A stretch of 26,973 bases of DNA from Archangium sp. (lineage in GTDB: Bacteria; Myxococcota; Myxococcia; Myxococcales; Myxococcaceae): NCBI GenBank assembly GCA_031367385.1, contig JANLPS010000084.1, forward strand, positions 1-26,973, read 5' to 3'. Shown here piece by piece: positions 1,445 to 24,520 of this stretch (position 1 is the stretch's first letter; each line of letters opens with the position of its first letter). The notes under the pieces are model-generated. The model had not been told where the DNA came from. It searched no databases and was given only the letters and a program-made list of their open reading frames with translations. The position numbers and the translations under genes are program-made.

Positions 1445-3160
1445 ATGAACGCTCCCACCGTTGAAACCCAAGCCAAGACCTGGGCCCAGCATGACCCCGA
1501 CGCGAAGACCGCCGCCGAGGTGCTCGCGCTGCTCGAGAAAAACGACACCAAAGAGCTGGGCGACCGCTTCGGCAGCTCGCTCGAGTTCGGTACCGCGGGC
1601 CTGCGCGGGGTCATCGGTGGCGGCCCGAATCGCATGAACCGCGCGGTCATTCGCCGCACCACGTTGGGGCTCGCCCGCTACCTCAAGGCCACGGTGCCCG
1701 ACGTGCTCACCCGCGGAGTCGTCATCGGCCGTGATGGCCGCCACATGAGCCTCGAGTTCGCCAACGACACCGCCTCGGTGCTCGCGGCAGAGGGCATCCC
1801 CGCGCATGTGTTCACGACGCTGGCGCCCACGCCCTTGACCGCGTTTGGCGTCACCGCCCTCAAGGCCGCCGCCGGCGTGATGGTTACCGCCAGCCACAAC
1901 CCGCCCGAGTACAACGGCTACAAAGTGTATTGGAGCAACGGCGCGCAGATCATCCCTCCGCACGATGCAGGCATCGCCAAGGCAATCGACGGAGTCGGCG
2001 CGGCGAACGAAGTGGCATTGATGAGCGAAGCCGATGCTCGGGCCAAGGGTCTGTGGGTCGATGTACCCGCCGCCGTCGAGCGCGCGTACCTCGACGCGAT
2101 TCTCGGGTTGCGCCCGACCAAGCTCACCGCTGACCTGCGCATCGTCTACACCGCGATGCACGGCGTTGGCGGCCGGCTGGCGATGCAGGTGCTCTGGGAA
2201 GCCGGGTTCAAGAACGTGACCGCGGTGGCCGAGCAGCAAGAGCCCGACGGCGCTTTTCCCACCGTGCGTTTTCCCAACCCAGAAGAGCCCGGCGCGATGG
2301 ACTTGTCGACCGCGCTCGCCGCGAAGACCAACGCCGACATCGCGCTGGCGAATGACCCCGACGCCGACCGCCTCGCGGTGATGGCACGCGACTCGGCCGG
2401 AGCGCTGCGCATCATGACCGGCAACGAGGTCGGCGTGCTGCTCGGGCACTTCATGCTCACGCAGCAAAAGACCAAGAACCCGATCGTGATGACGACCATC
2501 GTCTCATCGGCGCAGCTCAAGTCGATCGCTTCGTCGCTCGGGGCGAAGTACGCCGAGACCCTCACCGGCTTCAAGTGGATCGCCAATCGCGCGATGCAGG
2601 CCGAGACCGAGGGTCAGCGCTTCGTGATGGGGTACGAAGAAGCGCTGGGCTACACGGTCGGTGATGTCGTTCGAGACAAAGACGGCATCGGCACCGCGCT
2701 GGTCATCGCCGACATGGCTGCGTGGTGCAAAAGCAAGGGCACCACCTTGCTCGGCTACCTCGAAGACGTTCAGCGCGCGCACGGCCTCTTCGTCGCCAAG
2801 CAGTACAACGCCACGCTGCCTGGAGCCACCGGCGCAGCGGCGATCAAATCGGTGATGGAGCAGTTTCGGGCCCGGCCGCCGAGTCGCATCGGTGACCTGG
2901 CGGTGGAGACTCCCATTGACTACCTGGGCGAGACGCCGCTGCCCAAGTCGAACGTGATTGCCTATGAGCTGGCGGGTGGTGGGCGCGTCACGCTGCGGCC
3001 CTCGGGCACCGAGCCCAAGATCAAGTTCTACTTCGAGCTGCGTGAAGTGCTCAGCGCGGGCGAAGCGATGCCGGCCGCCAAGGCGCGCGCGACCGCCAAG
3101 CTCGAGGCGTTCGAAAAGGCCTTTTTGACGCTCGCCCATGAGCGAGGTCTGCCGAAATGA
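1445..3160 (+). CDS. Alpha-D-phosphohexomutase family phospho-sugar mutase (PGM/PMM, PGM2-like); possibly acts as phosphopentomutase
   Basis: Motifs FGTAGLRG, TASHNP (phospho-Ser), DPDADR (metal loop), GYEEALG, RPSGTEPKIK. The start is set at ATG 1445 after AAGAGAGG; the ORF-track start at 1259 overlaps deoC. Confidence 0.92.
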   Translation: MNAPTVETQAKTWAQHDPDAKTAAEVLALLEKNDTKELGDRFGSSLEFGTAGLRGVIGGGPNRMNRAVIRRTTLGLARYLKATVPDVLTRGVVIGRDGRHMSLEFANDTASVLAAEGIPAHVFTTLAPTPLTAFGVTALKAAAGVMVTASHNPPEYNGYKVYWSNGAQIIPPHDAGIAKAIDGVGAANEVALMSEADARAKGLWVDVPAAVERAYLDAILGLRPTKLTADLRIVYTAMHGVGGRLAMQVLWEAGFKNVTAVAEQQEPDGAFPTVRFPNPEEPGAMDLSTALAAKTNADIALANDPDADRLAVMARDSAGALRIMTGNEVGVLLGHFMLTQQKTKNPIVMTTIVSSAQLKSIASSLGAKYAETLTGFKWIANRAMQAETEGQRFVMGYEEALGYTVGDVVRDKDGIGTALVIADMAAWCKSKGTTLLGYLEDVQRAHGLFVAKQYNATLPGATGAAAIKSVMEQFRARPPSRIGDLAVETPIDYLGETPLPKSNVIAYELAGGGRVTLRPSGTEPKIKFYFELREVLSAGEAMPAAKARATAKLEAFEKAFLTLAHERGLPK

Positions 3161-3822
3161 TCTCAGCGCTTTTAGGCGTGCTGATCAGTGCGGCCGTGGT
3201 GAGCGATGAGCCGGCTGCCGTGCTCGAACAAGGTCAGGCGTGGTCGGTCGTCGGAGGTCGAACCGTCGGCGAGCGGCGCGGCGCCTTCGAGTTCGGCGTT
3301 GGTTTTCCCTCGGTATCGGTCGGGTATCTGCGAGGCGTCGCGCCGCGCTTCGATGTCGGTGGGCGGGTCTCGTTCGTCTATGCGCAAGAGGGCATGGTGC
3401 GTTCGGTCGTGCCGGGCCTGAAGCTCCAAGGCCTGCTGAAATTTCAGCTGATCAATTCAGGCGCGCTCTCGGTCGCCGCCACCTTCGAGCCGGGGCCGTT
3501 CTTCAACGTGTTTCCCTACGGGCTGTATCTGTATGGGTCGACCGCGGTCTGGGGGTTCGCGCTGCCGCTGGGTGTGCGCGTCGGCGTGGCTGCTTCGAGC
3601 GCGTTGACGCTGGGCATTACATTCGACGTGCCGATTTGGGTTCAGTTCGGCTCGCTGGGCGGAGTGAACGTGCCGGTGCTGCCCGGCGTCGGCGTCGAAT
3701 ATTTCGTGAAGAGCGATCTGCTGCTCTTCGCCAAAGTGCGCATGGGCCCGACGATTCGGCCCTACCCCTTCACGGCGGAGTTCACGCTCGACGCGAGCAT
3801 CGGGCTCGGTTTGCGGTTGTGA
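3157..3822 (+). CDS. Hypothetical exported protein, probable small outer-membrane beta-barrel
   Basis: ATGA overlap with the mutase stop; hydrophobic N-terminal signal; many alternating Gly/aromatic beta-strands (FDVGGRVSFVY, GVGVEYFV); C-terminal strand ASIGLGLRL. Confidence 0.6.
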   Translation: MISALLGVLISAAVVSDEPAAVLEQGQAWSVVGGRTVGERRGAFEFGVGFPSVSVGYLRGVAPRFDVGGRVSFVYAQEGMVRSVVPGLKLQGLLKFQLINSGALSVAATFEPGPFFNVFPYGLYLYGSTAVWGFALPLGVRVGVAASSALTLGITFDVPIWVQFGSLGGVNVPVLPGVGVEYFVKSDLLLFAKVRMGPTIRPYPFTAEFTLDASIGLGLRL

Positions 3823-4222: not shown

Positions 4223-5116
4223 TCAACGCAGCTCAGGGTCGTACGGGGTACCCAGCGCGGCCGGAGCAGCGACCGCGCGCTTGCCTTGAACGGCGAGCAC
4301 GACCAGCGTGAGCGCGTAGGGGAGCGCCAGGAGCGCACCCTGCGGGACCACCTCGAGCAAACCAGGGGCTGAGGAGGCGAGCCCGATTCTCAACGCGTTC
4401 CCGAAGGCGAAGAAGGTCGCTGCGGCGGCGGCTCCCAGTGGGGTCCACCGGCCGAAGACCATCGCAGCGACCGCCATGAACCCCAACCCCGAGGGCATGT
4501 GGTGCTCGAAGTGATCGAGGGTCGAGGTCGATAACGCCGCTCCGCCGAGGCCCGCGAAGGCGCCGCTGAGCGTGACCGCCCCCAGTCGCAGACGTGACAC
4601 GCGAACGCCCATCGCCGCCACCGCGCTGGGTTTTTCACCGACCGCGCGAAGCCGTAGCCCCCACGGGGTTCGGGTGATTGCGACGTGCACCACGAAGGGC
4701 AGCACCATCGCGAGGTACGTGTACGGTGAATGGCCGAGCCACAGCGGCAATTGGGTGATGCTCGGCGTGCGCGACTGCGATGAGAAGACCGCCTCGAGCA
4801 AGAAGGTACCGAGCGCGAGCAGCACGAGGTTGATTGCCATGCCCGAGACGACCTGATCAGCGCGCCACCGAATGCACAGCCAGCCGTGCAGGGCACCGAC
4901 CAGCGCGCCCACGGCGACGCCGACCAAGACGCCCAATGGCGTTGGCATGATCAATGCGGCGGCCGCGGCGGCGAAGGCCCCAGCGCGCATCATGCCTTCG
5001 ACTCCGACGTTCACGACGCCGGCGCGCTCTGAGAGCGTGGCCCCGAGCGCGGCGAAGACCAGGGCCGGTGCGGCGTCGAGCACCGAGGTGAGCAAACCGG
5101 CGAGCAGAGAGATCAT
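4223..5116 (-). CDS. Nucleoside/sugar ABC transporter permease II (NupC/YufQ-like, BPD_transp_2)
   Basis: Motifs SERAGVVNVGVEGMM, GLRLRAVGE, GFMAVAAMVFGRW, LPY, APAALGTPY. ATG 5116 forms an ATGA overlap with the upstream permease stop. Confidence 0.9.
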   Translation of the reverse strand: MISLLAGLLTSVLDAAPALVFAALGATLSERAGVVNVGVEGMMRAGAFAAAAAALIMPTPLGVLVGVAVGALVGALHGWLCIRWRADQVVSGMAINLVLLALGTFLLEAVFSSQSRTPSITQLPLWLGHSPYTYLAMVLPFVVHVAITRTPWGLRLRAVGEKPSAVAAMGVRVSRLRLGAVTLSGAFAGLGGAALSTSTLDHFEHHMPSGLGFMAVAAMVFGRWTPLGAAAAATFFAFGNALRIGLASSAPGLLEVVPQGALLALPYALTLVVLAVQGKRAVAAPAALGTPYDPELR

Positions 5117-6201
5117 GGCTTGGCCCGGCGGGTCAGGAGCTGAGACCAGAACAGCTTCGCCGCCACCAACAGCAGCGCGAGCCCTTGAATCAGCTCGGGG
5201 AAGCTCTTGTGAACGCCGAAGAGCTGCATGCGGGTGCCTCCGGCGCGGAGGGCTCCGAAGAAGAGTGCGGTGAGCATCACGCCCAGCGGGTTGCCTTGGC
5301 CGATCAGCGCCATCGCGATGCCGTCGAAGCCGTAGGGGGCGGCGAGGGTGGCGGGGTACTTCTGCTCGGTGCCGAGCACCAGCACCGCGCCGGCGAGACC
5401 GGCGAAGGCGCCTGACAGCACCATGGCTTGGAGCATCGTGCGTTCGACGTTGATGCCGGCGCTGCGTGCGGCGTCGAGGCTGAGCCCCACCGCGCGCCAT
5501 TCGTAGCCGCGCTGAGAGCGGGTCAGAAAAAGCCAGGTGCCCACGGCTGCGACCAGCGCGAGCACGATGCCCAGGTTGAGCCGCGAGAGATCGGCGAGCA
5601 GGCGCGGGAGCTCAGCGGTCGGTTGAATTTGCGCGGTGCCGGAGATGGAGTTGTCGCCGCTGGCTCGCGCGCGCAACGGGCCGACGATGAGCCAATTTTC
5701 GATCAGTGAGACCGCGACCCAGTTGAGCATGATGGTGCTGATGACTTCGTGCACTCCGCGACGGAGCTTGAGCCAGGCGGGGCCGAGTGCGTAGAGACCA
5801 CCACCGAGCGAGGCGGCGAGCAGGCAGGTGAGCAGGTGGAGTGGGGCGGGCAGCTCGAAAGCGGCGCCGGCGACCGCGGCTGCGAGTGCGCCGACCATCA
5901 GCTGACCTTGCGCGCCGATGTTGAAGAGGCCGACGCGAAAGGCGACGGCGACGGAGAGGCCGGTGAAGAGCAGGATCGTGGCCTTGGTCGCTGATTCACC
6001 GAACGGCCGGAGGACAGAGCCGGGGTCGCCGGTGGAGATGAGCTTGGGCCAGTCGCCGATGCCGCCCCAGATCATCGAAGCGTAGGCGTCGAAGGCGATG
6101 CCGAGGCCGCCGCGGGTCAGTGCGGTGGCGATGAAGCAGATGATAATCGCGGCGATGATCGACAGCGTCGAGGGCAGGGCACGGCGCAGCGTTTCACGCA
6201 T
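5113..6201 (-). CDS. Nucleoside/sugar ABC transporter permease I (NupB/YufP-like)
   Basis: Motifs GLFNIGAQGQ, HEVISTIMLN, GYEWRAVG, GFDGIAMALIG. ATG 6201 overlaps the ATPase stop. Confidence 0.9.
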   Translation of the reverse strand: MRETLRRALPSTLSIIAAIIICFIATALTRGGLGIAFDAYASMIWGGIGDWPKLISTGDPGSVLRPFGESATKATILLFTGLSVAVAFRVGLFNIGAQGQLMVGALAAAVAGAAFELPAPLHLLTCLLAASLGGGLYALGPAWLKLRRGVHEVISTIMLNWVAVSLIENWLIVGPLRARASGDNSISGTAQIQPTAELPRLLADLSRLNLGIVLALVAAVGTWLFLTRSQRGYEWRAVGLSLDAARSAGINVERTMLQAMVLSGAFAGLAGAVLVLGTEQKYPATLAAPYGFDGIAMALIGQGNPLGVMLTALFFGALRAGGTRMQLFGVHKSFPELIQGLALLLVAAKLFWSQLLTRRAKP

Positions 6202-7693
6202 GGTCGACGTGCACCCCGAGCATCGCGCGGCCGATTCGCTTCTCGTCGTATGCACCCCGGCTCAATTCGTCGGTCACGCGCCCCTCGAACATCACGAGCA
6301 TGCGGTCTGCCAACGCCAGCACTTCATCGAGGTCGAGGCTGACCAGCAACACCGCACAGCCCCGCGCGCGCTCTGCCAGGAGCTTCGTGCGCACTGCCTC
6401 GACGGCCGCGATGTCGAGCCCCCGCGTCGGCTGCACCACCACCAACACCTTGGGCGCCGAATCGAGCTCACGCCCGACCACGAGCTTCTGCTGATTGCCG
6501 CCCGACAACGCGCCGGCCCGCAGCAACGGGTCTCGCGGCCTGACGTCATTGGCCTCCATCAACGCCACCGTTCGATCGTGGCGACCCGCAAAGTCGATTC
6601 GAAACCCCCGCGCAAACGGCGCCTCACCGTGCCGGCCGAGCGCAACGTTCTCCTCAACGGTCATCTCGACGACCAGCGCTCGCCGATGCCGATCTTCTGG
6701 AATGTGCGCAAGCCCGGCGGCCCGCGCCAACTTCGGCGTCAGCGACCTGCGCTCGACCCCATCGAGGGTCACCGTGCCACTCCGCCAGGGCGCCAGCCCG
6801 GTCACCAGCTCAGCGAGCTCGCCCTGCCCATTGCCATCGACCCCGGCGATGCCAACGATCTCACCCGCGTGCACCGTGAGAGAAACACCATGCACCTTCG
6901 CGGCCTCGAGGTTGCGCAGCACCAGGCGTGCCTCACCGTGGGTCGGTCGTTCGGCCAGCAGCGGAGCCACCCCGACCACCGAATCTCCGACCATCAGCTG
7001 CGCGAGCGCCTCGGCCGAAGTCTCACCGGGCTTCACCTCGCCGACCTTCTGCCCTCGTCGCATCACCGCGATGCGAGACGCAAATCGCAGCACGTCGCGA
7101 AGCTTGTGGCTGATCAGCACCACCGTCAGCCCCTCCCGCGCCAGCCGCTCGGTGACCTCGAAGAGCTCATTCGCCTCTTGCGGCGTCAGCACTGCCGTCG
7201 GCTCATCGAGTATCAACGTCTTCACGCCGCGATGGAGCGCCTTGACGATCTCCACCTTCTGTTGCGAGCCCACGGTCAACGAATCGACCCGCGCCCTCAC
7301 GTCGAGCGAAAACCCGAAGCGCTGACAGGTCGCCTCGACCTCGCGAACCGCAGTGGGCAGGTCGAGCATGCCGAAGCGGGTCGGCTCTGCGCCCAACACC
7401 ACGTTCTCAGCCACTGTCAGGGTCGGCACCAGCGTGAAGTGCTGATGCACCATGCCGATGCCACGGGCGAGCGCGTCAGCCGGAGTGCGAAGTCGAACCG
7501 GCACACCGTCGAAGCGAAGCTCACCCGAGTCAGGCTGGTAGAGCCCGTACAGCACGTTCATCAGTGAGGTCTTGCCCGCGCCGTTTTCACCGATCAGCGC
7601 CACCCGCTCGCCCGGCGCCAACTCGAGAGACACGTCATCGAGCGCTACCAACCCTGCGAAGCGCTTCGAGATGTGGTGCAGAGAAATGATCAG
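6194..7693 (-). CDS. CUT2-type dual-NBD ABC ATPase (NupA/YufO-like); start uncertain (CTG 7693 or GTG 7729)
   Basis: Walker [28 protein letters not shown], degenerate second Walker [29 protein letters not shown]. Confidence 0.93.
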
Positions 7694-10600
7694 GCGCCTT
7701 CTCCCGAGGGCGAGGCCTGCGCGAGCCACAGCTGCTCGAAGCGAACCTGCGGCGGAGTCTGATGCAACCGCAGCCCCTGCACCGCGCTGCTGCCAATCGC
7801 GTGAAACCGCTCGTGGTACAGCGGTACCAGCACGCAGTCTTCGCGAACGATGATCTCGGCCTTGCGGTACAGCTGCTCACGCAACCCCGGGTCGATCGAC
7901 ACGCGCGCCTCATCGGTGAGCCGGTCGAACTCCGCGTTCTTGTACCCGACGCCGTAGTAGCCCTGCATCTTCGAGTGCAACAGCAGGTGCAAGAAGTTGT
8001 CGGGGTCGGCGACCTCGGCGATCCAGTTCGCGCGAAACACCGGGAGGCGGCCCTCGCGCACCTGGTCCCAGTAGCCGTCGCGAATTTCGACGTGGCTCAG
8101 CTCGACCAGGCCGGCCTCGATCAGCGGCCCGAACAGCCGAACGTCTTCGGCGCGAGTGTCGCGGTCAGGCGGGTAGTACAGCGTGATGTTCACTTTCGAG
8201 TGGCCGGCCTCGACCAACAATTTCTTCGCCAAAGCGATGTCGGTGCGCGGCTCGTACACGCGCTCGATGTCCATCAAGCTGGGGGGCGTGAGTGACCGTG
8301 CCACTCTCGCGCCCGGGTGAAAGGCATCGACCAACGCCCGAACGTCGAGGCCCGCGCGAATCGCCCGCCGCACCCGAACGTCGTCGAAGGGCGCGCTCGT
8401 CGCGTTGAAGCCGAGAAACCAGACCGACGGCGTGTTGACGGTGGCGGCTTTGGCCGGGTCGAGCCCGGCGGCCCGCAGGTTCTCGGCGTGCAGGTTCGAC
8501 ACCAGCTGCACCTCGCCTCGCCGATAGGCCGCCAGCGCGTCAGCGCGTGAGGGGTACGAGCGCACATCGACCCGCGCCAGCAGTGGCAGCCCCGGCCTGA
8601 AATAGGTCGGGTTTCGCTCGAGGGAGACCGACTTGTCAGACGCCTCGAGCAGCCGAAAAGGCCCGGTGCCGACCAGCTTGTTGCCGTCTTTTCGAGTCAC
8701 GCTCGCGGAGGGCAGGGCCAGGGTGCGCAAGAAGAACGCCCGCGGCTCTTCGAGGCGAATTTCGAGGGTATGGCTGTCGAGCACCTCGATGCCGCTGATG
8801 CTTCGCGCTTCCCCCGCGAGGTACTTCGACGCTCCGGCGATGTCTTTGAAGCGCGGGGCATCGGGCGCGGCCACGCTTGGGTTCATCAAACGCTCGAAGT
8901 GCGCCTTGACGTGCCCTGCGTTGAGCTGAATGCCGTCTGAGAAGCTGACACCGCGACGCAGGGTGAACCGGTAGCGGCGCGCGTTGGGGTCGGCCTCCCA
9001 TGACTCGGCGAGGTCTGGCACCAGCATGCCGTCTTCGAAGCGCACCAGCGTCGAGAACAATGCGCTCGAGACCTCAGAGATTTGCAAGTCAGCGGTGAAC
9101 AGCGGGTCGAGGTGGTGGGTCGCGTCGAGCGAAAAAAGCTGATGCAATGCCACCCGGAGCGTGCCGCCCGAGCGAGGTTGGGGCAGCTTGAAGCGAAAGA
9201 CCTCGGCGTCGAGGGTCTCGGCTTCTTGGGCCAGCTGATCAACGGTTCGCGAGAGCCCGTCGCCAATGCGAACCACGCGTTGCGCGTCTTCGCGCACCTC
9301 TGAGACTTCTTCGCTGATCGCCGTGTTGCCCTTGGCCAGCGTCATCTGCGCCGCGCGTATCTCGTCGACCGCTGCCGCCAATCGCAGCACCGAGTCGGAG
9401 AGCTCGCGACCCACCGCCGCCTGCCGAACCGCCTGCTGGGCCGCGTCATTGCCGACCCGCGACATGTCTTGCACGTGCTTGACCAGCTCGCGGCCGCTGC
9501 TGGCTTGCTCGTTGGCCTGATGCACCACCTCGACGACGCGCTGCGAGAGCTGATGACTGACCTCGACCAGCGCCGAGCCCTGCTCCTCGAGGCGCTGGGT
9601 CTCGGTTTGGGTCGACTCGACCGCGTTGAGCGCGCGCTGCGAGGTGTTGCGAATCTCGGTCAGGGCCTGTGAGGCCTTCTCACCGAGCTCGACGCCCGCG
9701 CTCGCTTCGTCGCGGCCGCGGGTGACCAGCTCGGCCGCACGGGCCATGCCTTCACGCACACCCTTGACCTGAATCGCGATTTCACGCGTCGAGCGCGCCG
9801 TCTTCTCAGAAAGCGTGCGCACCTCGGTCGCCACTACCGCGAAAGCCCGGCCGCTTTCTCCGGCTTGAGACGCGATGATCGCCGCGTTGAGCGCGAGCAG
9901 GTTCGTCTGATCAGCGATCTCCTGAATCACGTCGACGACTCGGCCGATCTCGTGACTGCTGGCCCCCAATGAATCGACCAGCTTCGCGGCCCGCTGCGAC
10001 CAGTCGTCGATGCGGTGAATGCCACGCAAGCTGTCGTTGACGAGCTGCGAGCCACGCGCGGCGGTGACCGTCACTTCACGCGCGAGCTCTCGGGTCTCAT
10101 CACTGCGGCGCCGAACCGCGTCGATGGCGCTCTCGGCTGCAGAGATGACCTCCTGCGCTTGGGTCGACAACCGCACCAGGGTCTCGCCTTTTTCAGCGAC
10201 CCCCGTGGCGCGCGAGCTGAGCATCTCGACGCGATCGACCGTGCGTTGTGCGGCGGCGTTCACGGTCGTAATCGACGTCGCGCCCTGCTCGATGCTCTCG
10301 GTGATCTGCGCCAACGCCGCAGTGGTGCCGCGCGCGAAAGTGTCGAGCTGGCCGACGCGCTTGGCGGTGCTGGTGAGGCTCTGACCCATGCTCTCGACCG
10401 CATGCTGCGAACGTTCGGCCGCCGAACCTTGGCGCCGCGCGGCTTCGAGCAGCGAGCGAGACTGACCTCCCACGTCATTGCTGGTGCGTCGCAGGCCGGC
10501 GGTGACCCGCTGCACCTGCCAGAGCGCCCGTCGCAGCGATAACGCGACCTGCTGCAGCTCGCCTTGATCAATCGAGGCGCTGGGCAGCTCGGCCAGGTCG

Positions 10601-10836
10601 CCTTGGGCGAGGCGGCTGAGCGCTGCCCGTCGAAGCTCGGCGCGACGCTGCGAGAGCCGGTAGAAGGTCACCCACCCCAGGGCCGTGAAGGTCGCCATGG
10701 TGATGATGAGCAAGGTCACCCACGCGCCGATGGTGGAGGGGTGGCCAGTGAATGCCAGGCACACCAGCCCGCTGACCACGCCCGCGCCCAGGCCCCCGAC
10801 CGGTCCAAACATGAGCAGCGACCAGCGGTTCTCCAT
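7690..10836 (-). CDS. Methyl-accepting chemotaxis protein (2 TM-HAMP-MA) fused to a C-terminal family-5 (DppA/OppA-like) solute-binding domain
   Basis: Two hydrophobic segments at aa ~7-30 and ~36-58; HAMP-like 'LSRLAQGDL...[10 protein letters not shown]'; hairpin tip [34 protein letters not shown]. From aa ~553, SBP_bac_5 motifs [56 protein letters not shown]. Confidence 0.9.
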
Positions 10837-10914
10837 GGAGCGCTGACCCTATAGCAAGGGGTGCTCGGGTTGAAATTGCTGACGCGTGCGCGAGGTGAAA
10901 AAGCTACAAACCCA

Positions 10915-11847
10915 ATGATGGCCTCCCCCAGCGCACCGCCCCGCGTGTTGATGGTCGGCGCTGGCGCCGTGGGCCAGGTCTTCGCCTGGTACCTCATGCG
11001 CGGGGGAGCGTCGGTCTCATTTCTGGTCAAGCCGAGCCACGCATTGCCGAGCGAGCTGCCGATGCTCGAGCAGGTTCGCACCCCAACCGTGTTGCACGGC
11101 TTCGGCCGCCTGACCTCGACCGACGAGGTCGCCAAGCAAGACTGGGATCAAGTGTGGCTCGCCGTGCCCTCGAACGCGCTGAGTGAAGCCTGGCTGCCGA
11201 AGCTGCTGCGGGTGACTGGCGATGCCACGGTGGTGACCCTCGCCGCGGAGGGCGTGGCGCACATTCCTCCGTTACGGCGGGTGGTTGGGTCGATACCGTT
11301 CATCGCGTGGCAAGACCCGCTGCCGGGGCACTCTGGGCCCCAGCGGCTGGCTTTCTGGGTGCCGCCGATGGCGCCGGTCACGGTGAGCGGCGACGACGGG
11401 GCGCGGGTGGCGGCGGTTCAACGGGCGCTGCGCAACGGCAAGCTGAATGCGCCGCGGGTCACCGACTCCGTCAAGGCGGGTATGCCGGTCACCGCGTTGC
11501 TGATCGCCTCGATCGCGGGGCTCGAGGCGGCAGGGTGGCGGCTGGCCGACTTTCGGGGGCAGTGGTCAGCGCTGGCGGGCAGAGCCGCGCGAGAGGTGAT
11601 GGCGGGCGAGGGCGTCAGCGCGGTGTGGCGGCTGGCTGCACGAGGCCCGCTGCTGCGATTCGTGCTCTGGCTCGGAGCCCGGGTGTTGCCGTTCGACCTC
11701 GAGGCGTACTTGAAATACCACTTCACCAAGGTCGGTGAGCAGACCCGGGTCTTCATGGGGTTGTGGGTCAAGCGGGGCCGCGAGCGAGGCGTGCCGGTCG
11801 AGGCGGTTGATCAATTGCTCAAGGCGATCGGGCCGCATCGCACATGA
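10915..11847 (+). CDS. Ketopantoate-reductase (PanE/ApbA)-like NAD(P)-dependent oxidoreductase with divergent C-terminal domain
   Basis: RVLMVGAGAVG Rossmann motif and WDQVWLAVPS. Start at ATG 10915 or 10918. Confidence 0.65.
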   Translation: MMASPSAPPRVLMVGAGAVGQVFAWYLMRGGASVSFLVKPSHALPSELPMLEQVRTPTVLHGFGRLTSTDEVAKQDWDQVWLAVPSNALSEAWLPKLLRVTGDATVVTLAAEGVAHIPPLRRVVGSIPFIAWQDPLPGHSGPQRLAFWVPPMAPVTVSGDDGARVAAVQRALRNGKLNAPRVTDSVKAGMPVTALLIASIAGLEAAGWRLADFRGQWSALAGRAAREVMAGEGVSAVWRLAARGPLLRFVLWLGARVLPFDLEAYLKYHFTKVGEQTRVFMGLWVKRGRERGVPVEAVDQLLKAIGPHRT

Positions 11848-12644
11848 TCGGGGCCTTGCTCGCGGGGCTGATCAGCGCGGCGCCCGTTGATCAGGGCCGC
11901 TACGTGATGAGCGTCGGCGGCGCTCCCGTGGGCGTCGTCTCTTTCTCGGTCGTCGGCGGGCAGTACACCTACCAGTCGACGCAGGTGTTTCGCTCGAAGA
12001 CCAGCGACGTCACGTCGAAACGCTCGCTCGCCGAGGCGATCAAGCCCGAGGTGTGGTGGCTCTCACGACGGCGTGCCCCGGGGTGCGTGACCGTCTTCGA
12101 AGAGCGCGCGAGTAAGAACGAAGAGGTTTGCACGACCGATGACGGCGGGGGCACCATCGCGGGTGCTCCGTTTCACGCCGATTACGATGGCATGGGCGCG
12201 CTGGTTCACCTCGAGGTCGCCAGCGTTCGCTTCGACGCCTCGAAGGCCTCGTTGCCCGGCCGTGCCGACCCCTTCGCCGAAGGGTTCATCGTCACCGGCC
12301 ACGGCGCGGGAGTGGAGATCGACCCGCCGTTCGACGCAGTGACCGAGGTGACGGTCTCGCCGCTGACCTCCCGACCCTCAGACGACGATGAAGGCACCTC
12401 GTGCCTCGAGCTCGCGCGCGCAGAGGTGGCGAAGTCGCCTGGCAGCATCGTGGTGCTCGGCGTGGTCGTCGACGGCGACCGCGCCTGGCCGCACGCTTGG
12501 GTGAAGCGCACCAACGGCACGTGGGTCGACCCCACCCTCACCAAGGCTCTGCCCACCCGCCACTATCTCGCGTTTTCTCGCGACGCCGGCCGCCTGTATC
12601 TCGAGCTGCTCGCCGGCCAGCGGCGGCTCGTTCGGGGCCGGTGA
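11844..12644 (+). CDS. Secreted protein with C-terminal transglutaminase-like (Cys-His-Asp) motif set
   Basis: ATGA overlap; signal MIGALLAGLISA-AP; motifs SCLELA, PHAWV, WVDPT. Confidence 0.6.
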   Translation: MIGALLAGLISAAPVDQGRYVMSVGGAPVGVVSFSVVGGQYTYQSTQVFRSKTSDVTSKRSLAEAIKPEVWWLSRRRAPGCVTVFEERASKNEEVCTTDDGGGTIAGAPFHADYDGMGALVHLEVASVRFDASKASLPGRADPFAEGFIVTGHGAGVEIDPPFDAVTEVTVSPLTSRPSDDDEGTSCLELARAEVAKSPGSIVVLGVVVDGDRAWPHAWVKRTNGTWVDPTLTKALPTRHYLAFSRDAGRLYLELLAGQRRLVRGR

Positions 12645-16479: not shown

Positions 16480-17520
16480 CTACCGCGGAGGCGTGTCTCC
16501 GAAGGGAATCACGCTCACCCGATCACCGGTCTTGAGCTTGAGCTGTTGCTTGGCGGCTTTGGGCAAGTAGGCGATTTGATCGTCGAAGCGCACCTGGGCC
16601 CGCGTCGCGCGAAAGCGATTCGGCCCGGTCTCACGCGACACCGCCACCAGACAGTCTTCGGCCTCGACCCCGAGATCTTCTTTGCCCAGCTTCGCCGTTC
16701 GAAATTTTCGAACCAGCGTGACCTCTGAGAGATCAGCCTCGTAATGCGGCCCGCCGTCGAAGGGGTCGATGTGGTTGTCGTAGCTGAAGCCGATGCGCTC
16801 GAGCATGCGCTGCACGCCTCGGGTCTCGGGCCCGACATCGCCGATGATCTTCTGCGCCCGTTCGGGAAACAGGGACACGTAGATGTCAGACGAGGGGAAG
16901 AGCTCTTTGATGAATTCTTTGTTCTGCCGCGAGAGCTTGTCGGCTTCGTAATATTCGAGGCCGGTGAACTTCTTGCCGCATGACTCCCAGAGCAGACTTC
17001 TGCCGTCGGTCATCAGCGGCGGTAACAGCTCGGCCAGCACCCGCTCGCGAAAGGCCTTGCGGTGCATCGCCATGAACAAGAAGCGCACGTAGCTCAATTG
17101 CTTGCCAGGCTTCTCGGGCCCGCTGCGGTGCGGCGGGTCGACCACCAGCCCGCCGATCTCCGTCGGGCCGTCGTAGTTGTACCCAATCGACAACACCGTG
17201 TGCTTGAAGTGCTTGTCGATGCTGACCGAGTAGTGCTCGGCGACGGTGACCTGAAAGTAGATGTGCGGGGCCTCGCGCGTACCGTGCTGCGCGATGATCA
17301 TCGAGGTGCCGACCAGGGCTTCGGTGCGCTGATCTTCGAGCACGAAGAGGTACTCGCGCTCGAACGGGTCTTCGATTTTGCCGGTGAAGCTCTTGACCGA
17401 TTTGTCGATCAGCGCCGCCAACACCTCTTCATTGTTCGGCAAATTGACGCTGTTCAGCACGGCGGCCAGCCGTTTGAGGCCGGGGAGGTCACTCTTTGCG
17501 GCGTCTCGCAGGAGGTACAT
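16480..17520 (-). CDS. astA: Arginine N-succinyltransferase
   Basis: NSVNLP, YLFVLED, GPTEIGGL, GKQLSYVRFLFM, VLAEL, ADKLS...KEFIKELFP, IDPFDGGP. Start taken at ATG 17520 (MYLLRDA). Confidence 0.88.
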   Translation of the reverse strand: MYLLRDAAKSDLPGLKRLAAVLNSVNLPNNEEVLAALIDKSVKSFTGKIEDPFEREYLFVLEDQRTEALVGTSMIIAQHGTREAPHIYFQVTVAEHYSVSIDKHFKHTVLSIGYNYDGPTEIGGLVVDPPHRSGPEKPGKQLSYVRFLFMAMHRKAFRERVLAELLPPLMTDGRSLLWESCGKKFTGLEYYEADKLSRQNKEFIKELFPSSDIYVSLFPERAQKIIGDVGPETRGVQRMLERIGFSYDNHIDPFDGGPHYEADLSEVTLVRKFRTAKLGKEDLGVEAEDCLVAVSRETGPNRFRATRAQVRFDDQIAYLPKAAKQQLKLKTGDRVSVIPFGDTPPR

Positions 17521-17608
17521 GACGAGAAGGGCCTTAGCCCGGTTGCGCTCAGACCCGGTCATGAAAACGCTGGGCGATGACGCGCGTTGTCACTGTACAA
17601 TTCGAAGA

Positions 17609-18754
17609 ATGACCAGTCGCGCGTCGCAATGGTTGGCAGGGCAGCTCCCATCGATTGACGAGGCGCTGCGAGGCCTGGTCGAGCTCAACTCGTTCAGTGG
17701 CAACCCCGCTGGTGGCCGCGCGGTGGGCGCGTTGTTGCTCGAGCAGTTCGCCATCGATGGCCTGAGGGCCGAGGTCGTGCCGAGCAGCCTGCACGCAGAT
17801 CACCTGGTCTTTCGCTCCGAGGGGCGGGCGGGGTCGGCACCGATTTCCTTGCTCGGCCACCTCGACACCGTGTTTCCTCCCGGGCTCTTCGAGGGCTACC
17901 GCGTCGATGGCCAGTGGCGCCGCGGGCCCGGGGTGTTCGACATGAAGGGGGGGCTGGTGGTGATGGCCTTCGCGCTCAAGGCCATCGCCGCGACCGAAGG
18001 GCTCTCGCGCATCCCTCCGGTTCGGGTGGTGATCGTCTCTGACGAAGAGATTGGCTCACCCGAGGGCGGCGGGGTGATTCGAAAGGCCGTCGCGGGCAGC
18101 CAAGCGTGCCTGGTCTTCGAGCCCGGCCGGGCCAACGACGCCATCGTCACCCAGCGCAAGGGCACCGGGTCGGTGCGGGTCATCGCCGAGGGCAAGGCCG
18201 CGCACTCTGGCAACGCCTACTGGGAGGGCGCCAACGCCATCTGGTCATTGGCCAGGTTCGTCGAGGCAGCGCAGGCGCTCTCATCGCGCGAGCGGGGAGT
18301 CACGGTGATCGTCGTCACCATCTCGGGAGGCACCTCGATGAACACCGTGCCCGCCCAGGCCGTGGCTGGAGTCGACCTCCGCTACCTGACGCCAGATGAT
18401 GGGGCGCGGTTGGTCAGCGATCTCCAGCGCCTGGCGGCGAGCACCGCAATGCCCGGCACGACGCTCACCGTCGAAGCGGGCCCGCAGCGGCCCCCGATGG
18501 GGCGGGTGACCGGCACGCAAGCGTTGGTCGAGGCCTATTCACACGCCGCCGCCACGTTCGGGCTGGGGGCGGGCGAAGCAGACATGCAGGGCGGCGGGAG
18601 CGACGGCAACACCACTGCCGCGATGGGCATCCCCACCATCGACGCCTTGGGGCCCCGGGGCAGCGGGCTCCACACCATCGACGAGGTCATCGACGCGAGC
18701 ACCCTCATCCCCCGGGCGTCGGCGCTGGTCGAGCTGCTGCTCGGGGCTTCATAG
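17609..18754 (+). CDS. M20-family metallopeptidase (carboxypeptidase G2/ArgE-like)
   Basis: LGHLDTVF, GPGVFDMKGG, SDEEIGS, FEPG, GKAAHSG, GGGSDGN, GLHT. Confidence 0.9.
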   Translation: MTSRASQWLAGQLPSIDEALRGLVELNSFSGNPAGGRAVGALLLEQFAIDGLRAEVVPSSLHADHLVFRSEGRAGSAPISLLGHLDTVFPPGLFEGYRVDGQWRRGPGVFDMKGGLVVMAFALKAIAATEGLSRIPPVRVVIVSDEEIGSPEGGGVIRKAVAGSQACLVFEPGRANDAIVTQRKGTGSVRVIAEGKAAHSGNAYWEGANAIWSLARFVEAAQALSSRERGVTVIVVTISGGTSMNTVPAQAVAGVDLRYLTPDDGARLVSDLQRLAASTAMPGTTLTVEAGPQRPPMGRVTGTQALVEAYSHAAATFGLGAGEADMQGGGSDGNTTAAMGIPTIDALGPRGSGLHTIDEVIDASTLIPRASALVELLLGAS

Positions 18755-18854: not shown

Positions 18855-20807
18855 ATGTGTGGCGTCGCGGGTTTCTGGAACATCAAGGCGCTCAGCGAGC
18901 TCGACGCCCAGGGCCTGCTCGAGCGCATGAACACCGCGGTGCGCCATCGAGGGCCCGACGGCGCCGGCGCCTGGTTCGAGCCCGAGGCTCAGGTGGGTTT
19001 TGCCCACCGGCGCCTGGCCATACTCGACCTCTCGCCGACCGGTTTTCAGCCGATGCGCTCGGCCAGCGGCCGCTTCGTCATCACCTTCAACGGCGAGGTG
19101 TACAACTTTCGCGAAGTGCAGGCCGAGCTCGAGCGCGCCGGGCTCGCCCCGAAGTGGAAAGGCTCTTCAGACACCGAGGTGATGCTGGCGGCGATCGAAG
19201 CCTGGGGGCTCGAACCGGCACTGACCCGCTTCGTCGGCATGTTCGCCTTCGCCCTGTGGGACAAGACCGAGCAGCAGCTCCACCTGGTGCGCGACCGGTT
19301 GGGGGTCAAGCCGCTCTACTACGCGCAGACTCCCCAGGGCCTGTGCTTCGGCTCAGAGCTCAAGAGCCTCAGGCATTACCCAGGTCTCGAGACCCGCATC
19401 GACCCGACCGCGGTCGCCGGTTTCATGCGCGCCAATTGCGTGCCCGGCCACCGAACGATTTTTCAGGGTAGTCACAAGGTCGCGCCTGGCACGGTGGTGA
19501 CCCTGCGCAGGGCAGATGCGCCGCCGCACATCTCCCGCTGGTGGAACCCGGCGGAGGTCGCGCGTGAAGGTCTCGACCGGCCGTTCACCGGCGACGAGCA
19601 CGAAGCCACCGACGAGCTCGAGCGGCTGCTCCGTGAGGCGGTGCGCCTGCGCATGGTGAGCGATGTGCCACTGGGCGCGTTTCTTTCGGGTGGCATCGAC
19701 TCATCGACGGTCGTGGCGCTGATGCAGACCCTCAACGACCGCCCGGTTCACACCTTCTCGATCGGCAACGAGGCCGCCGCGTATGACGAAGGCGGAGCCG
19801 CCAAGGCCGTCGGCCGTCACCTCAACACCCACCACACCCCGCTCACCGTCACCTCGAAAGATGCGCTCGACGTCATCCCCTCGTTGCCGGCGATGTATGA
19901 CGAGCCCTTCGCCGACTCGTCGCAAATACCGACCTACCTGGTCTCGAAGCTCGCTCGGCGAGACGTGACGGTGGCGCTCTCGGGTGATGGCGGCGACGAG
20001 CTGTTCGGCGGCTATACCCGGCACGTCTGGAGCCCGATGCTCTGGCGCGGCATGCAGTATCTGCCCGAGCGTTCACGTCAGGTCGCGGCCGGCGCGGTGA
20101 GCAGTGTGACTCCCGCCCAATGGGAGCGCGTCTTCGAGACGGGTCGCTCGTTCTTGCCGAAGCTGCGGCTGCCCGCGCAGCGCATGCAGAAGTTGGCCTC
20201 GGTGCTCGCCGCGGCCAGCCCTGCGAGCATGTACGACGTGCTCTCATCACACTGGCTGCCAGGAGATCGCTTGCTCGAAGAGAGCGTCAGCATGCCGGTC
20301 GACACCGCGACGCCGGCCTGGCCGATGCCCCCCGGCCGAAGCGACCTGGTCGCGCAGTACATGATGTACCGCGATTTGACCGGCTACTTGCCCGACGACA
20401 TCTTGACCAAGGTCGATCGCGCGTCGATGTCGGTCAGCCTCGAGGTGCGCGAACCGCTGCTCGATCACCGCCTGGTCGCCTTCGCCTGGAGCCTCCCCCA
20501 ACGCCTCAAAGTGCGCGGCTCGACGGGCAAGTGGTTGCTGCGCCAGGTGCTCCACCGGCACGTGCCGAAGGAGCTCGTCTCGGGCCCGAAGATGGGCTTC
20601 GCGGTGCCGCTCGGCACCTGGCTGCAAGGGCCCCTGCGTGAGTGGGCCGACGGCCTGCTGGGTGAAAAGCGACTGCGTGAAGACGGCATCTTCAATGTCT
20701 CGTTGGTGCGTGAGCGGTGGCGTCAACACCTCGCCGGCACCCGCCAGTGGGAGCACCACCTGTGGGACGTGCTGATGTTCAACGCGTGGCGCGATGAAGT
20801 TCATTGA
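18855..20807 (+). CDS. asnB: Asparagine synthase (glutamine-hydrolysing)-family amidotransferase, polysaccharide-locus type
   Basis: MCG N-terminal nucleophile, HRGPD, HRRLAILDL, FNGEVYNF, SDTEV, RDRLGVKPLYY, LSGGIDSS, DEPFADSS, LSGDGGDELFGGY, KVDRASM. Confidence 0.93.
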   Translation: MCGVAGFWNIKALSELDAQGLLERMNTAVRHRGPDGAGAWFEPEAQVGFAHRRLAILDLSPTGFQPMRSASGRFVITFNGEVYNFREVQAELERAGLAPKWKGSSDTEVMLAAIEAWGLEPALTRFVGMFAFALWDKTEQQLHLVRDRLGVKPLYYAQTPQGLCFGSELKSLRHYPGLETRIDPTAVAGFMRANCVPGHRTIFQGSHKVAPGTVVTLRRADAPPHISRWWNPAEVAREGLDRPFTGDEHEATDELERLLREAVRLRMVSDVPLGAFLSGGIDSSTVVALMQTLNDRPVHTFSIGNEAAAYDEGGAAKAVGRHLNTHHTPLTVTSKDALDVIPSLPAMYDEPFADSSQIPTYLVSKLARRDVTVALSGDGGDELFGGYTRHVWSPMLWRGMQYLPERSRQVAAGAVSSVTPAQWERVFETGRSFLPKLRLPAQRMQKLASVLAAASPASMYDVLSSHWLPGDRLLEESVSMPVDTATPAWPMPPGRSDLVAQYMMYRDLTGYLPDDILTKVDRASMSVSLEVREPLLDHRLVAFAWSLPQRLKVRGSTGKWLLRQVLHRHVPKELVSGPKMGFAVPLGTWLQGPLREWADGLLGEKRLREDGIFNVSLVRERWRQHLAGTRQWEHHLWDVLMFNAWRDEVH

Positions 20808-20842
20808 CAGAATCGACCGCGCCGGGTTCTGAGGTCTGTGCT

Positions 20843-21889
20843 GTGCGTGTTCTGTTTTTCACCGACGGCGTGCTGAGCCCGGGCAGCCGGTTTCGCTGCC
20901 TGCAATTCTTCAAAGAGCTCGAGTCGCGCGGCATTCAGTGTACGGCGCGCTTCGCGTACGACGAGCGCTACAACGACATCTTTTCTCGAAGCTGGGCGCC
21001 CGCGTACAAGCTGGGCCGGCGCCTCAAGCGGGTCGGCCACCTTTGGGTCGAGCGCGAGACCGACCTGCTCTTCATTCACAAGACCTCGATGGCGCTCACC
21101 GCCTTGCCAGAGGTGGTGCGCGGCTTCGGTAAAACGCCCATCGTCTTCGACTACGACGACTCGATTTGGCTTGGCCCCGGAGGCGTCGCGAGCACGATGC
21201 GACGCCGCACCTTCGAGGCGATGGTGCGCACCGCTGATCAAATCATCGCGGGCAACCAGTACCTGGCCGACGCCGCCGACGCGCCCGAGAAGACGATGCT
21301 CATCCCCTCCGTGGTCGACACGGTGCTCTCGAAGCCCGGCGCGCCACGCGTCTCGGCCGAGCCCGTCATCGGGTGGATCGGGACTGCCTCGAATTTTCCA
21401 TACCTGCGCGCGGTGATGCCGCAGGTGCTCGCCGCCATCGAGCAGCTGCCGCGGGCGCGGCTGCGAATCGTCAGCAACGGCACGCTGCCAGAATATGAGC
21501 ATCACCCGCGCGTCGAGCAGTGGCGCTGGAGCGCGGCCGGAGAGCTGCGAGCGCTGCAGAGCTTCGACGTCGGGTTGATGCCGCTCGACGACTCCGCGCA
21601 GACCCGGGGCAAATGCGGGTTCAAGATGATTCAGTACATGTCGGTGGGAGTGCCAGTCGTCGCCAGCGCGGTCGGCGCGAATATCGACATCTTCACCGGG
21701 TCGAACGCGGGGTACCTGCTCGGCGCCAACGACAGCTGGGAGCACGCGGTGCGAGCCCTGATGACGACCTCCGCGGCGGAGCGCCAGGCGATGGGCGAAC
21801 GGGGGCGGAGCAGGGTGGTGGCGAGCTACTCCGTCGCGAGCGTGATCGACCGGTACGTGAAGCTGTTTCGCGAGCTCGCCGATGCGTAG
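20843..21889 (+). CDS. Glycosyltransferase family 4 (GT-B)
   Basis: SRFR, VFDYDDSIW, IGWIG, GKCGFKMIQYMSVGVPVVASAVG. GTG 20843 follows GAGG; alternative TTG 20804 overlaps the asnB stop. Confidence 0.88.
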   Translation: MRVLFFTDGVLSPGSRFRCLQFFKELESRGIQCTARFAYDERYNDIFSRSWAPAYKLGRRLKRVGHLWVERETDLLFIHKTSMALTALPEVVRGFGKTPIVFDYDDSIWLGPGGVASTMRRRTFEAMVRTADQIIAGNQYLADAADAPEKTMLIPSVVDTVLSKPGAPRVSAEPVIGWIGTASNFPYLRAVMPQVLAAIEQLPRARLRIVSNGTLPEYEHHPRVEQWRWSAAGELRALQSFDVGLMPLDDSAQTRGKCGFKMIQYMSVGVPVVASAVGANIDIFTGSNAGYLLGANDSWEHAVRALMTTSAAERQAMGERGRSRVVASYSVASVIDRYVKLFRELADA

Positions 21890-21960
21890 CCCGACGCCCG
21901 CCCGAGCCAAGCGCGGCTGGTTCGATTCACCTTTTGGCCTGAACGTGCTGAGTGTGACCC

Positions 21961-22455
21961 ATGGCTGACGACACCTGTCTTCAGATGGTGAACGCGAAGG
22001 CAATCGCCGCTCTCAAGAAGCAGCCGACTCTCATCGGCGAGCTCAACAGGCCGCGCAGCCAGGTCTATTCGACGTACTTCCCGGGCTCGATGAACGTGTT
22101 CATGGTCGGGTCTCCGTACCCGCGGCCGACGATTGCCAGGCCCCTCACCGCCGCGCTCTTCGGCCTCCATTTCGTCAAATCTGAATCATTCGAAGCCGGT
22201 CACTTCGGCATCGTGCCGGCGCGAAACGTGCGCGCGGTCTTGGCGAGCCTCGAGAAGCTCGACCTGAAGAAAGTCGCCGCCGCCGTTGCCAGCGCAGACG
22301 CCGCGAAGCTCGCTGACCGCGAGGTGTACGACTTCGAGATTTTGCTGACCGAAGAGCACCCCGCCAAGGCGCTGGTCGCCGACATTCGCCGGCTCACGGC
22401 TTTTTACCGGCGCGCCGCTGCCCGCACACTCGGTGTCGCGATGTTCACCGCCTGA
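21961..22455 (+). CDS. YfbM/DUF1877-like hypothetical protein
   Basis: Size and C-terminal pattern 'VRAVLASLEKLD...LTAFYRRAAARTLGVAM' fit this family. Confidence 0.55.
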   Translation: MADDTCLQMVNAKAIAALKKQPTLIGELNRPRSQVYSTYFPGSMNVFMVGSPYPRPTIARPLTAALFGLHFVKSESFEAGHFGIVPARNVRAVLASLEKLDLKKVAAAVASADAAKLADREVYDFEILLTEEHPAKALVADIRRLTAFYRRAAARTLGVAMFTA

Positions 22456-22467
22456 AGCGGCGCGCAC

Positions 22468-23718: not shown

Positions 23719-23752
23719 CGCCGCACCGTAGCAAACACGGCGCGCGCCGCAG

Positions 23753-24520
23753 TCACGGCTCGGTCGCGTAGCCCAGCACCCGGTACACCACCCGGCCCAC
23801 CAGCTCGCGAATCGCGCGGGTCGACTCGGCCAGATACTCGGCCCTGGGCAGCACCGCCGGGTCTCGCTTCGGGTCGCGCATGCGGTAGTCGACCGGCAAG
23901 GTATCGACGTGCAGCCCGGCGGCCCTGAAGCACCCGGCGGCCCGCTTCATGTGAAAGGCGCTGGTGACCATCAGCACCGACGCAAACTGGTGCTCGTGCA
24001 CCAACTTGGCCGACTGCACCGCGTTCTCGTGCGTGTTCTTCGACAGCGGTTCGATGACGATGCGTTCTTCGCCGATGCCCCAGGCGAGCAGCTGGCCCTT
24101 CAGAAACGCGGCCTCGGTCGGCAAAGCGTCGTTCAAGGGCCCGCCAGAGAGAATCACCACGTTCGCCTTGCCCGCGCGGAGCAGGTCGAACACCACGGTC
24201 AGCCGCTCGACGTTGTTGCCGTAGGCCGCCTGGTCATGGGTGCTCCCGGAGGTGTCGACCACGCCGCCCAGCAGCACCACCGCGTCGTAGGTGACCTCGG
24301 CTCGGTACGTGTTGGGCGCATCGGCCTCGAGTGACACCCACAGGTGGTCAACCACCACCGGCATCGCGAAGATGATCAGCACGGTCAGCCCGAGCACGCC
24401 GCTGGCCCACGACGCTCGTGGTCGCCGCCGATGCAGTGCCAGCCCCACTGCAATCGCCAGCAGCGCCCACCACAGCGGGTCGAGCGCCAGATCGAGCAGC
24501 TTCGAGAGAAAAAAGAACAC
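23753..24520 (-). CDS. YdcF/ElyC-family (DUF218) membrane protein
   Basis: GTG start giving MFFFLSKLL; VVLLGG, ILSGG, TEA, SKNTHENA, VTSAFHMKRA, IRELVG. Confidence 0.9.
   Translation of the reverse strand: MFFFLSKLLDLALDPLWWALLAIAVGLALHRRRPRASWASGVLGLTVLIIFAMPVVVDHLWVSLEADAPNTYRAEVTYDAVVLLGGVVDTSGSTHDQAAYGNNVERLTVVFDLLRAGKANVVILSGGPLNDALPTEAAFLKGQLLAWGIGEERIVIEPLSKNTHENAVQSAKLVHEHQFASVLMVTSAFHMKRAAGCFRAAGLHVDTLPVDYRMRDPKRDPAVLPRAEYLAESTRAIRELVGRVVYRVLGYATEP

What the first reader, a model, noticed from the sequence alone, without database searches (positions are those of the whole stretch)
4223..10836. Candidate transport-coupled sensing operon: MCP-SBP5 fusion heads a Nup-type ABC transporter lacking its usual BMP lipoprotein
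Seen: four - strand genes joined by stop/start overlaps (7690-7693, 6194-6201, 5113-5116): MCP-SBP5, ATPase, permease, permease. Established: NupABC/YufOPQ-type CUT2 importers normally partner a BMP/PnrA-family lipoprotein, while family-5 SBPs partner Opp/Dpp permeases, so the families are mismatched here. Inference: the transporter imports nucleosides using a BMP protein encoded elsewhere, and the co-expressed receptor senses the imported compound or a catabolite inside the cell, linking uptake to a chemosensory pathway.
Basis: partly seen in the sequence, partly recalled or inferred. Interest (0 to 1): 0.78.

Follow-up and report, generated by a model that had tools for sequence, protein, structure and literature searches.

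The report
Known receptor McpK shuffled beside importer
The four overlapping genes are real, but they pair a known myxobacterial chemoreceptor (McpK) with an ordinary nucleoside-type importer whose binding protein lies elsewhere in the genome, and the pairing is seen in only one small lineage, so it is likely a gene rearrangement and not a transport-sensing system.

Summary
In detail: MCP-SBP5, ATPase and two permeases overlap stop-to-start. The coupling interpretation is not supported. The receptor is the orthologue of Myxococcus xanthus orphan chemoreceptor McpK (ABF92748; both 1048 aa, 53% identical). Of 118 family genomes with both genes, only this one and its genus-mate place mcpK at nupA; one metagenome contig is a third case, and all three form one clade. 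The genome's single BMP lipoprotein is intact on another contig. In relatives bmp precedes nupA directly in at least 69 of 122 genomes, in two inspected cases with the same CTGA overlap. Nine genomes of one genus keep McpK with no nupA or bmp found. Best reading: a break between bmp and nupA put mcpK in bmp's slot; the importer likely uses the orphan BMP, and McpK signals independently. Side result: McpK's hairpin has 64H length, not the published 44H. It occurs with the receptor-less Che8 cluster (34 of 34) and in none of 12 Dif-only genomes, so Che8, not Dif, is its likely partner. Its cytoplasmic domain keeps the OppA-type R-x-x-W-x-x-D motif, which points to a peptide-like ligand.

The parts
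7690..10836 (-). mcpK orthologue: two N-terminal hydrophobic helices (about residues 7-31 and 35-58), extra-long MCP coiled-coil hairpin (about 94-551, 64H length), C-terminal family-5 solute-binding domain (about 556-1040)
   Evidence: Pfam; 53% identity over 1042 aa to ABF92748; hydropathy; hairpin length; fold
6194..7693 (-). NupA-type fused double ABC ATPase (CUT2); likely CTG start overlapping the mcpK stop
5113..6201 (-). NupB-type permease (BPD_transp_2), single copy in the genome
4223..5116 (-). NupC-type permease (BPD_transp_2), single copy in the genome
415..1317 (+). DeoC-family aldolase; long-standing neighbour of the nup genes, supports nucleoside catabolism
1445..3160 (+). PGM/PMM-family phosphomutase (phosphopentomutase role inferred from context); long-standing neighbour of the nup genes
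3157..3822 (+). Unannotated protein conserved between the phosphomutase gene and nupC in relatives
   Evidence: no Pfam hit; conserved position
10861..11847 (+). ApbA/PanE-like gene, divergent from mcpK; the same insertion is in L167
11844..12644 (+). Unannotated gene that is the commonest conserved neighbour of mcpK (47 of 80 loci), marking the mcpK side of the rearrangement

Best explanation
The locus joins an McpK chemoreceptor gene to a nupABC-type importer at a junction found in only one clade, likely through a single rearrangement that put mcpK where bmp normally sits, and the two likely work independently. Importer: the orphan BMP lipoprotein on contig C513 is predicted to bind nucleosides in the periplasm and deliver them to NupBC/NupA, feeding DeoC and the phosphomutase next door (inferred from family knowledge and synteny). 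The nup genes are likely read from the mcpK promoter here, with the CTG start of nupA coupled to the mcpK stop as it is to the bmp stop in some relatives (inferred). Receptor: McpK is anchored by two helices with almost no periplasmic loop, so its SBP5 domain is inferred to be cytoplasmic. It likely closes on a small peptide-like ligand and passes the change into a 64H-length hairpin, which likely signals to the receptor-less Che8 kinase cluster (inferred from length class and co-occurrence; no binding or signalling was tested).
For: Orthology: ABF92748 is in the M. xanthus cluster, is McpK in PMC3945109 Table 1, is 53% identical over 1042 aa and has this gene as best hit in the genome. Linkage: 118 of 151 family genomes have both genes; only G000 has them within 20 kb on one contig, and in 26 other genomes with both on one contig they are at least 784 kb apart. 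G001 has the junction split over two contigs. 0 of 80 McpK loci carry nup genes, 70 of them with at least 1 kb downstream. The three linked copies form one clade (SH-like support 100). BMP: one copy, with a lipoprotein-like signal, 56-78% identical to BMPs of relatives and closest to PnrA/TmpC/Bmp structures. A bmp gene lies within 250 nt upstream of nupA in 69 of 122 genomes and within 15 kb in 89 of 122. The same CTGA overlap joins bmp to nupA in L063 and L069 (2 of 5 junctions inspected). Thymidine phosphorylase remains about 8.5 kb from bmp on C513. Genus g15 has McpK in 9 of 9 genomes and NupA and BMP in 0 of 9. Hairpin: tip-to-end distance is 236 residues in McpK and the McpJ-like MCP, 166 in DifA-like, 151-152 in 40H-type MCPs; the alignment to the McpJ-like MCP has no gaps over 458 aa. 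Che8 is in 34 of 34 McpK genomes; McpK is in 0 of 12 Dif+/Che8- genomes. In G050 the only MCPs found are McpK and McpJ-like and the only CheA found is Che8-type.
Against: The junction has lasted while the McpK copies diverged to 77-86% identity, so some benefit from co-expression is not excluded. Family-5 domains bind varied ligands, including sugars and metals (PMC8050422 tables), so the motif does not fix the ligand; the window's own copy has Glu where 64 of 70 orthologues have Asp. Dif is also present in 33 of 34 McpK genomes, so the Che8 assignment leans on length class, 12 Dif-only genomes and one 93%-complete genome (G050). The 60 genomes were hand-picked and are related. PMC3945109 assigns McpK to 44H and Dif. 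Most relatives are fragmented assemblies, where 'different contig' does not prove distance.
Confidence: 0.82

Rival explanations
1. Transport-coupled sensing: in this lineage McpK senses the imported nucleoside or a catabolite and the operon is selected for that link.
For: Tight stop/start overlap; the junction is kept in three related records; the SBP5 domain is likely cytoplasmic; deoC and the phosphomutase are next door.
Against: Adjacent in 2 of 118 genomes; one origin only; McpK kept where nup and bmp were not found; best structural matches are peptide binders. Other, unrelated genes lie upstream of nupA in neighbouring clades. NupB and NupC are each split across reading frames in the G001 assembly, which may be decay or assembly error.
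Confidence: 0.08
2. McpK's SBP5 domain replaces BMP as the transporter's substrate-binding protein.
For: It occupies bmp's position in the operon.
Against: No hydrophobic segment lies between the MCP domain and the SBP5 domain, so it is inferred to face the cytoplasm; an intact BMP is retained, one per NupB/NupC; the fold class differs from Bmp.
Confidence: 0.02
3. The juxtaposition is incidental, but McpK signals to the Dif (exopolysaccharide) pathway, as proposed in PMC3945109, and not to Che8.
For: Published 44H classification and tree grouping with DifA; Dif is present in 33 of 34 McpK genomes.
Against: The C-arm is 70 residues longer than in the DifA-like MCP and equal to the McpJ-like MCP; 0 of 12 Dif+/Che8- genomes have McpK; G050 has McpK and no DifE was found. 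The same paper also groups McpK with McpJ and Mcp7.
Confidence: 0.08

Closest known systems
Myxococcus xanthus McpK (MXAN_6456, ABF92748; PMC3945109)
   Same: Same length (1048 aa), same architecture, 53% identity end to end, best hit in this genome.
   Different: Orphan in M. xanthus (next to astA in L145); here it heads nupABC. Published as 44H and Dif-linked; measured here as 64H length and tracking Che8.
NupABC + BmpA/PnrA nucleoside ABC importers (Treponema PnrA, Borrelia BmpA-D with BB0677-0679; PMC7093131)
   Same: Double ATPase plus two BPD_transp_2 permeases; a Bmp-family lipoprotein in the genome; Borrelia also encodes its BMPs (BB0382-0385) apart from the transporter.
   Different: A chemoreceptor gene holds the first position. 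Substrate untested; the best NCBIfam models are the related 'putative B6' ABC transporter ones, all below cut-off.
64H-class MCPs and the MCP-less Che8 / Geobacter beta-group clusters (PMC6943060, PMC8235581, PMC2577667, PMC6194562)
   Same: Hairpin 12 heptads per arm longer than 40H-type MCPs; this genome has a CheA-CheW-CheW-HEAT-CheR-CheB cluster with no MCP on the contig.
   Different: The sensor is a C-terminal SBP5 domain and not a periplasmic domain. MiST class HMMs were not available. A 64H-to-F10 link in Wuichet and Zhulin 2010 is recalled only; the paper was not held.
OppA/DppA family-5 peptide-binding proteins
   Same: Fold (TM-score 0.81-0.84 to 8upi and OppA 1ola); R935 and W938 invariant and D941 in 64 of 70 orthologues, aligned to OppA RAGWCAD (the role of these residues in peptide binding is recalled).
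   Different: No signal peptide; fused behind an MCP. Its nearest non-McpK relatives are other MCP-SBP5 fusions and kinase-AAA_16-(SBP5)x2 proteins.

Membership tests
McpK orthologue group | TM-MCP-SBP5 architecture of about 1048 aa | tested here: met
McpK orthologue group | Full-length similarity to ABF92748 and best hit of it in this genome | tested here: met
   53% over 1042 aa; 931 bits against 127 for the next hit
Nup/BMP-dependent CUT2 importer | Fused double ATPase plus two BPD_transp_2 permeases | tested here: met
Nup/BMP-dependent CUT2 importer | Cognate Bmp-family lipoprotein in the genome | tested here: met
   single PF02608 match, E 1.5e-61; similar to the nupA-linked BMPs of relatives
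Nup/BMP-dependent CUT2 importer | Nucleoside transport activity | not testable with these tools
   inferred from deoC, phosphomutase, thymidine phosphorylase and cytidine deaminase neighbours
Conserved transport-sensing operon | Receptor-transporter linkage conserved across lineages | tested here: not met
   2 of 118 genomes, 0 of 80 loci, one clade
Conserved transport-sensing operon | Co-transcription | not testable with these tools
   only the overlap geometry; no transcript data were examined
44H (DifA-class) MCP | Hairpin length equal to DifA | tested here: not met
   236 against 166 residues from tip motif to terminal Phe; gapped alignment to the DifA-like MCP
64H MCP | Hairpin 24 heptads longer than 40H | tested here: met
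   236 against 151-152 residues on the C-arm, i.e. +12 heptads per arm; the 40H labels of the calibrators rest on PMC3945109 and on my naming of them by context
64H MCP | Match to the MiST 64H profile HMM | not testable with these tools
   profile not in the available libraries
Che8-associated receptor | Occurs only with a Che8-type CheA | tested here: met
   34 of 34 McpK genomes in a hand-picked set of 60; kin are not independent
Che8-associated receptor | Physical binding to CheW8/CheA8 | not tested
   no complex prediction was run
OppA-type peptide-binding SBP5 | Fold and R-x-x-W-x-x-D motif | tested here: met
   (Glu in place of Asp in this copy)
OppA-type peptide-binding SBP5 | Peptide binding | not testable with these tools
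   needs a ligand screen

The most novel reading that the evidence does not exclude
McpK is the missing input of the receptor-less Che8 pathway: a 64H chemoreceptor that carries an OppA-like domain on its cytoplasmic C-terminus, drawn from the same pool as the SBP5 sensors of kinase-AAA_16 proteins, and that reports intracellular peptides. With McpJ it forms the minimal chemosensory set kept by the 2.2 Mb genome G050. This would replace the published McpK-Dif assignment and give Che8 a testable signal.
Probability: 0.4. Interest if true: 0.55.

Novelty: new member of a known kind. Interest (0 to 1): 0.27.

Why it matters
The flagged operon matters little: it shows how a one-off rearrangement can mimic a functional operon, down to an overlap geometry that is also seen at bmp-nupA junctions. 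The useful by-product concerns McpK, which is present in 138 of 151 family genomes yet barely studied. The length class and co-occurrence point to Che8, a cluster with no receptor of its own and, in the papers read, no known function. That gives two direct tests in M. xanthus: McpK binding to CheW8, and a ligand screen on the isolated domain.

Tried and rejected
Sequencing runs: no RNA holder was listed, so expression and co-transcription were not examined. Promoter/terminator scan: 0 promoter-like sites and 4 terminator-like sites against 4.2 expected, uninformative. Full-length monomer model: pTM 0.64, hairpin turn not formed, not used. Complex prediction of receptor with ATPase/permeases was not run, because neighbourhood alone was the only reason and that neighbourhood is not conserved. 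Literature: no paper held 'MXAN_6456' or 'Myxococcus + chemoreceptor + SBP_bac_5'; 'McpK + Myxococcus' gave 4 papers, one relevant; searches on 64H and Che8 gave no statement on McpK as 64H in the listings or passages seen. Two likely relevant papers (Wuichet and Zhulin 2010; a 2018 myxobacterial chemosensory survey) were not held, so the 64H/Che8 link may already be in print. Earlier findings of this scan: none. Rejected: assembly chimera (three independent records share the junction); SBP5 as the importer's binding protein (topology); astA or the 11844-12644 gene as proven functional partners (conserved neighbours only).

Full report
Observation. The four minus-strand genes and the three overlaps are as described. 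The first protein has MCPsignal (250-425) and SBP_bac_5 (605-956); the others are a double ABC ATPase and two BPD_transp_2 permeases. The best NCBIfam models are the 'putative B6' CUT2 ones, all below cut-off. The ATPase most likely starts at CTG 7693, since homologues align from its first residues. On the other strand lie deoC and a phosphomutase, which also flank the nup genes in several relatives, where thymidine phosphorylase and cytidine deaminase genes are also near (the last two named from their sequence by recall). A nucleoside substrate is therefore inferred, not shown.

The receptor is known. The M. xanthus homologue cluster contains ABF92748, listed as McpK (MXAN_6456, 1048 aa, solute-binding domain, orphan) in Table 1 of PMC3945109. 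Identity is 53% over 1042 residues, and this gene is its best hit in the genome by 931 to 127 bits. I read sections 6, 7 and 9 and passages of that paper. The mcpK mutant is named neither among the S-motility mutants nor among those without defects, which implies a developmental phenotype; Figure S2 was not seen. McpK-GFP was not among the ten fusions detected.

The BMP is elsewhere. The genome has one PF02608 match, G000:C513:12922-14076, with a lipoprotein-like N-terminus, and one NupB and one NupC. Its closest solved relatives are Bmp/PnrA/TmpC proteins. It lies about 8.5 kb from thymidine phosphorylase on C513, a gene that sits near bmp or nupA in relatives. Borrelia offers a precedent for BMPs encoded apart from their transporter (PMC7093131, passages).

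The linkage is not conserved. In 151 family genomes of at least 85% completeness, 138 have the McpK domain, 122 NupA and 127 a BMP. These counts include one genome flagged unpublished, G063, and no claim depends on it alone. Of 118 with both McpK and NupA, only G000 has them within 20 kb; in the 26 others that have both on one contig they are at least 784 kb apart. G001, the only other genome of the genus, has the junction split over two contigs, so the count is 2 of 118. For fragmented genomes a different contig does not prove distance, but 0 of 80 McpK loci from the genome collection carry any nup gene, and 70 of those have at least 1 kb downstream. Of the 11 best metagenome loci examined (of 63), one, L167 with 86% identity, has the same order. 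The three linked copies form one clade with support 100 in a FastTree of 29 rows. A bmp gene lies within 250 nt upstream of nupA in 69 of 122 genomes, within 5 kb in 17 more and within 15 kb in 3 more. The other 33 include some whose BMP match was not listed or was cut by a contig end, such as G058 and G017. In 2 of 5 bmp-nupA junctions inspected, the bmp stop overlaps nupA in the same CTGA. Where bmp has moved away, other genes or a divergent promoter region precede nupA. Twenty genomes have McpK with no NupA found, including all 9 of genus g15, where no BMP was found either. Against my reading, the junction has survived divergence to 77-86% identity, so it is at least tolerated. In the G001 assembly NupB and NupC are each split across frames, which may be decay or error.

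How McpK likely works. Hydropathy shows only two N-terminal hydrophobic segments with a loop of a few residues, so the SBP5 domain is inferred to be cytoplasmic and could not feed the permeases. The domain model (pLDDT 90.8) matches peptide-binding proteins best (8upi, OppA, DppA; TM-score 0.81-0.84). R935 and W938 are invariant and position 941 is Asp in 64 of 70 orthologues, Glu in this copy; they align with OppA RAGWCAD, whose role in peptide binding I recall. Family-5 proteins also bind sugars and metals (PMC8050422, passages), so the ligand is open. Outside McpK the nearest relatives are other MCP-SBP5 fusions and kinase-AAA_16 proteins with two SBP5 domains (37 of the 150 listed hits were scanned), so use of this domain as a fused sensor is widespread.

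Which pathway. From the tip motif to the terminal aromatic residue, the FrzCD-like and Mcp5-like MCPs of this genome measure 152 and 151 residues, the DifA-like one 166, and McpK (here and in M. xanthus) and the McpJ-like one 236 (paralogue names are mine, from size and context). The steps of 14 and 84 residues equal 2 and 12 heptads per arm, i.e. 44H and 64H if the first two are 40H. McpK aligns to the McpJ-like MCP without a gap over 458 residues. 64H is an established class (PMC6943060 and PMC8235581, passages). Che8 and the Geobacter beta-group clusters lack an MCP gene (PMC6194562, one passage; PMC2577667, section 12); that the two are the same cluster type is my inference. I searched 60 hand-picked genomes (26 without and 34 with McpK) for the Che8 and Dif kinases. 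Che8 was scored at E 1e-130 or better, plus G041, whose divergent CheA-CheW-CheW-HEAT cluster I checked by hand. Result: Che8+Dif+ 33 with and 7 without McpK; Dif only 0 with and 12 without; Che8 only 1 with and 1 without; neither 0 with and 6 without. G050 (2.2 Mb, 93% complete) shows just McpK, an McpJ-like MCP and a Che8-type CheA; G124 shows one McpJ-like MCP and two Che8-type CheAs. Absence of McpK was scored at strict thresholds, so divergent copies may be missed, and kin are not independent. This conflicts with the 44H/Dif proposal of PMC3945109. The searches showed no paper stating the 64H/Che8 reading, but two likely sources were not held.

Verdict. The arrangement is real but is best explained as a single lineage-specific rearrangement of two known parts (0.82). 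Functional coupling remains possible at about 0.08. Novelty: new member of known kinds. Interest 0.27, most of it from the McpK-Che8 lead.

Noticed in passing
window 11844-12644 (+): Unannotated gene (no Pfam hit) found beside mcpK, usually divergent, in 47 of 80 loci; it has a Cys...His-Ala-Trp pattern that recalls transglutaminase-like proteins (recalled, untested).
   Followed up: partly
window 16480-17562 (-) and 17378-18754 (+): astA (arginine N-succinyltransferase) and an M20 peptidase; astA is within 6 kb of mcpK in 37 of 80 loci, on either side, so it may be a better lead to McpK's ligand than the nup genes.
   Followed up: partly
window 3157-3822 (+): Unannotated protein conserved between the phosphomutase gene and nupC in several genera; possibly an outer-membrane protein of the nucleoside cluster.
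   Followed up: partly
P0145, P0147, P0154, P0161, P0175: A large family of about 1900-aa kinase-AAA_16 proteins ending in two SBP5 domains, close in sequence to the McpK sensor domain; one adds a SIR2-like domain, and P0138 has BTAD-AAA_16 with four SBP5 domains.
   Followed up: no
G050:C115, C22, C130 (L248, L250, L247): A 2.2 Mb genome of the family in which only McpK, an McpJ-like MCP and one Che8-type CheA were found: a minimal chemosensory set.
   Followed up: partly
genus g16 (e.g. G139, G158, G164): Many genomes of this genus carry two McpK paralogues.
   Followed up: no
L057 (G001:C521) 8599-10588: NupB and NupC are each split across reading frames in the genus-mate; decay or assembly error.
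   Followed up: no
G000:C513:14101-21958: A minor-pilin and large adhesin-like gene cluster lies between bmp and thymidine phosphorylase (names from sequence by recall).
   Followed up: no
window 18855-26771: Polysaccharide-type cluster: asparagine synthase-like amidotransferase, glycosyltransferase, DUF218 protein and Wzz/tyrosine kinase.
   Followed up: no
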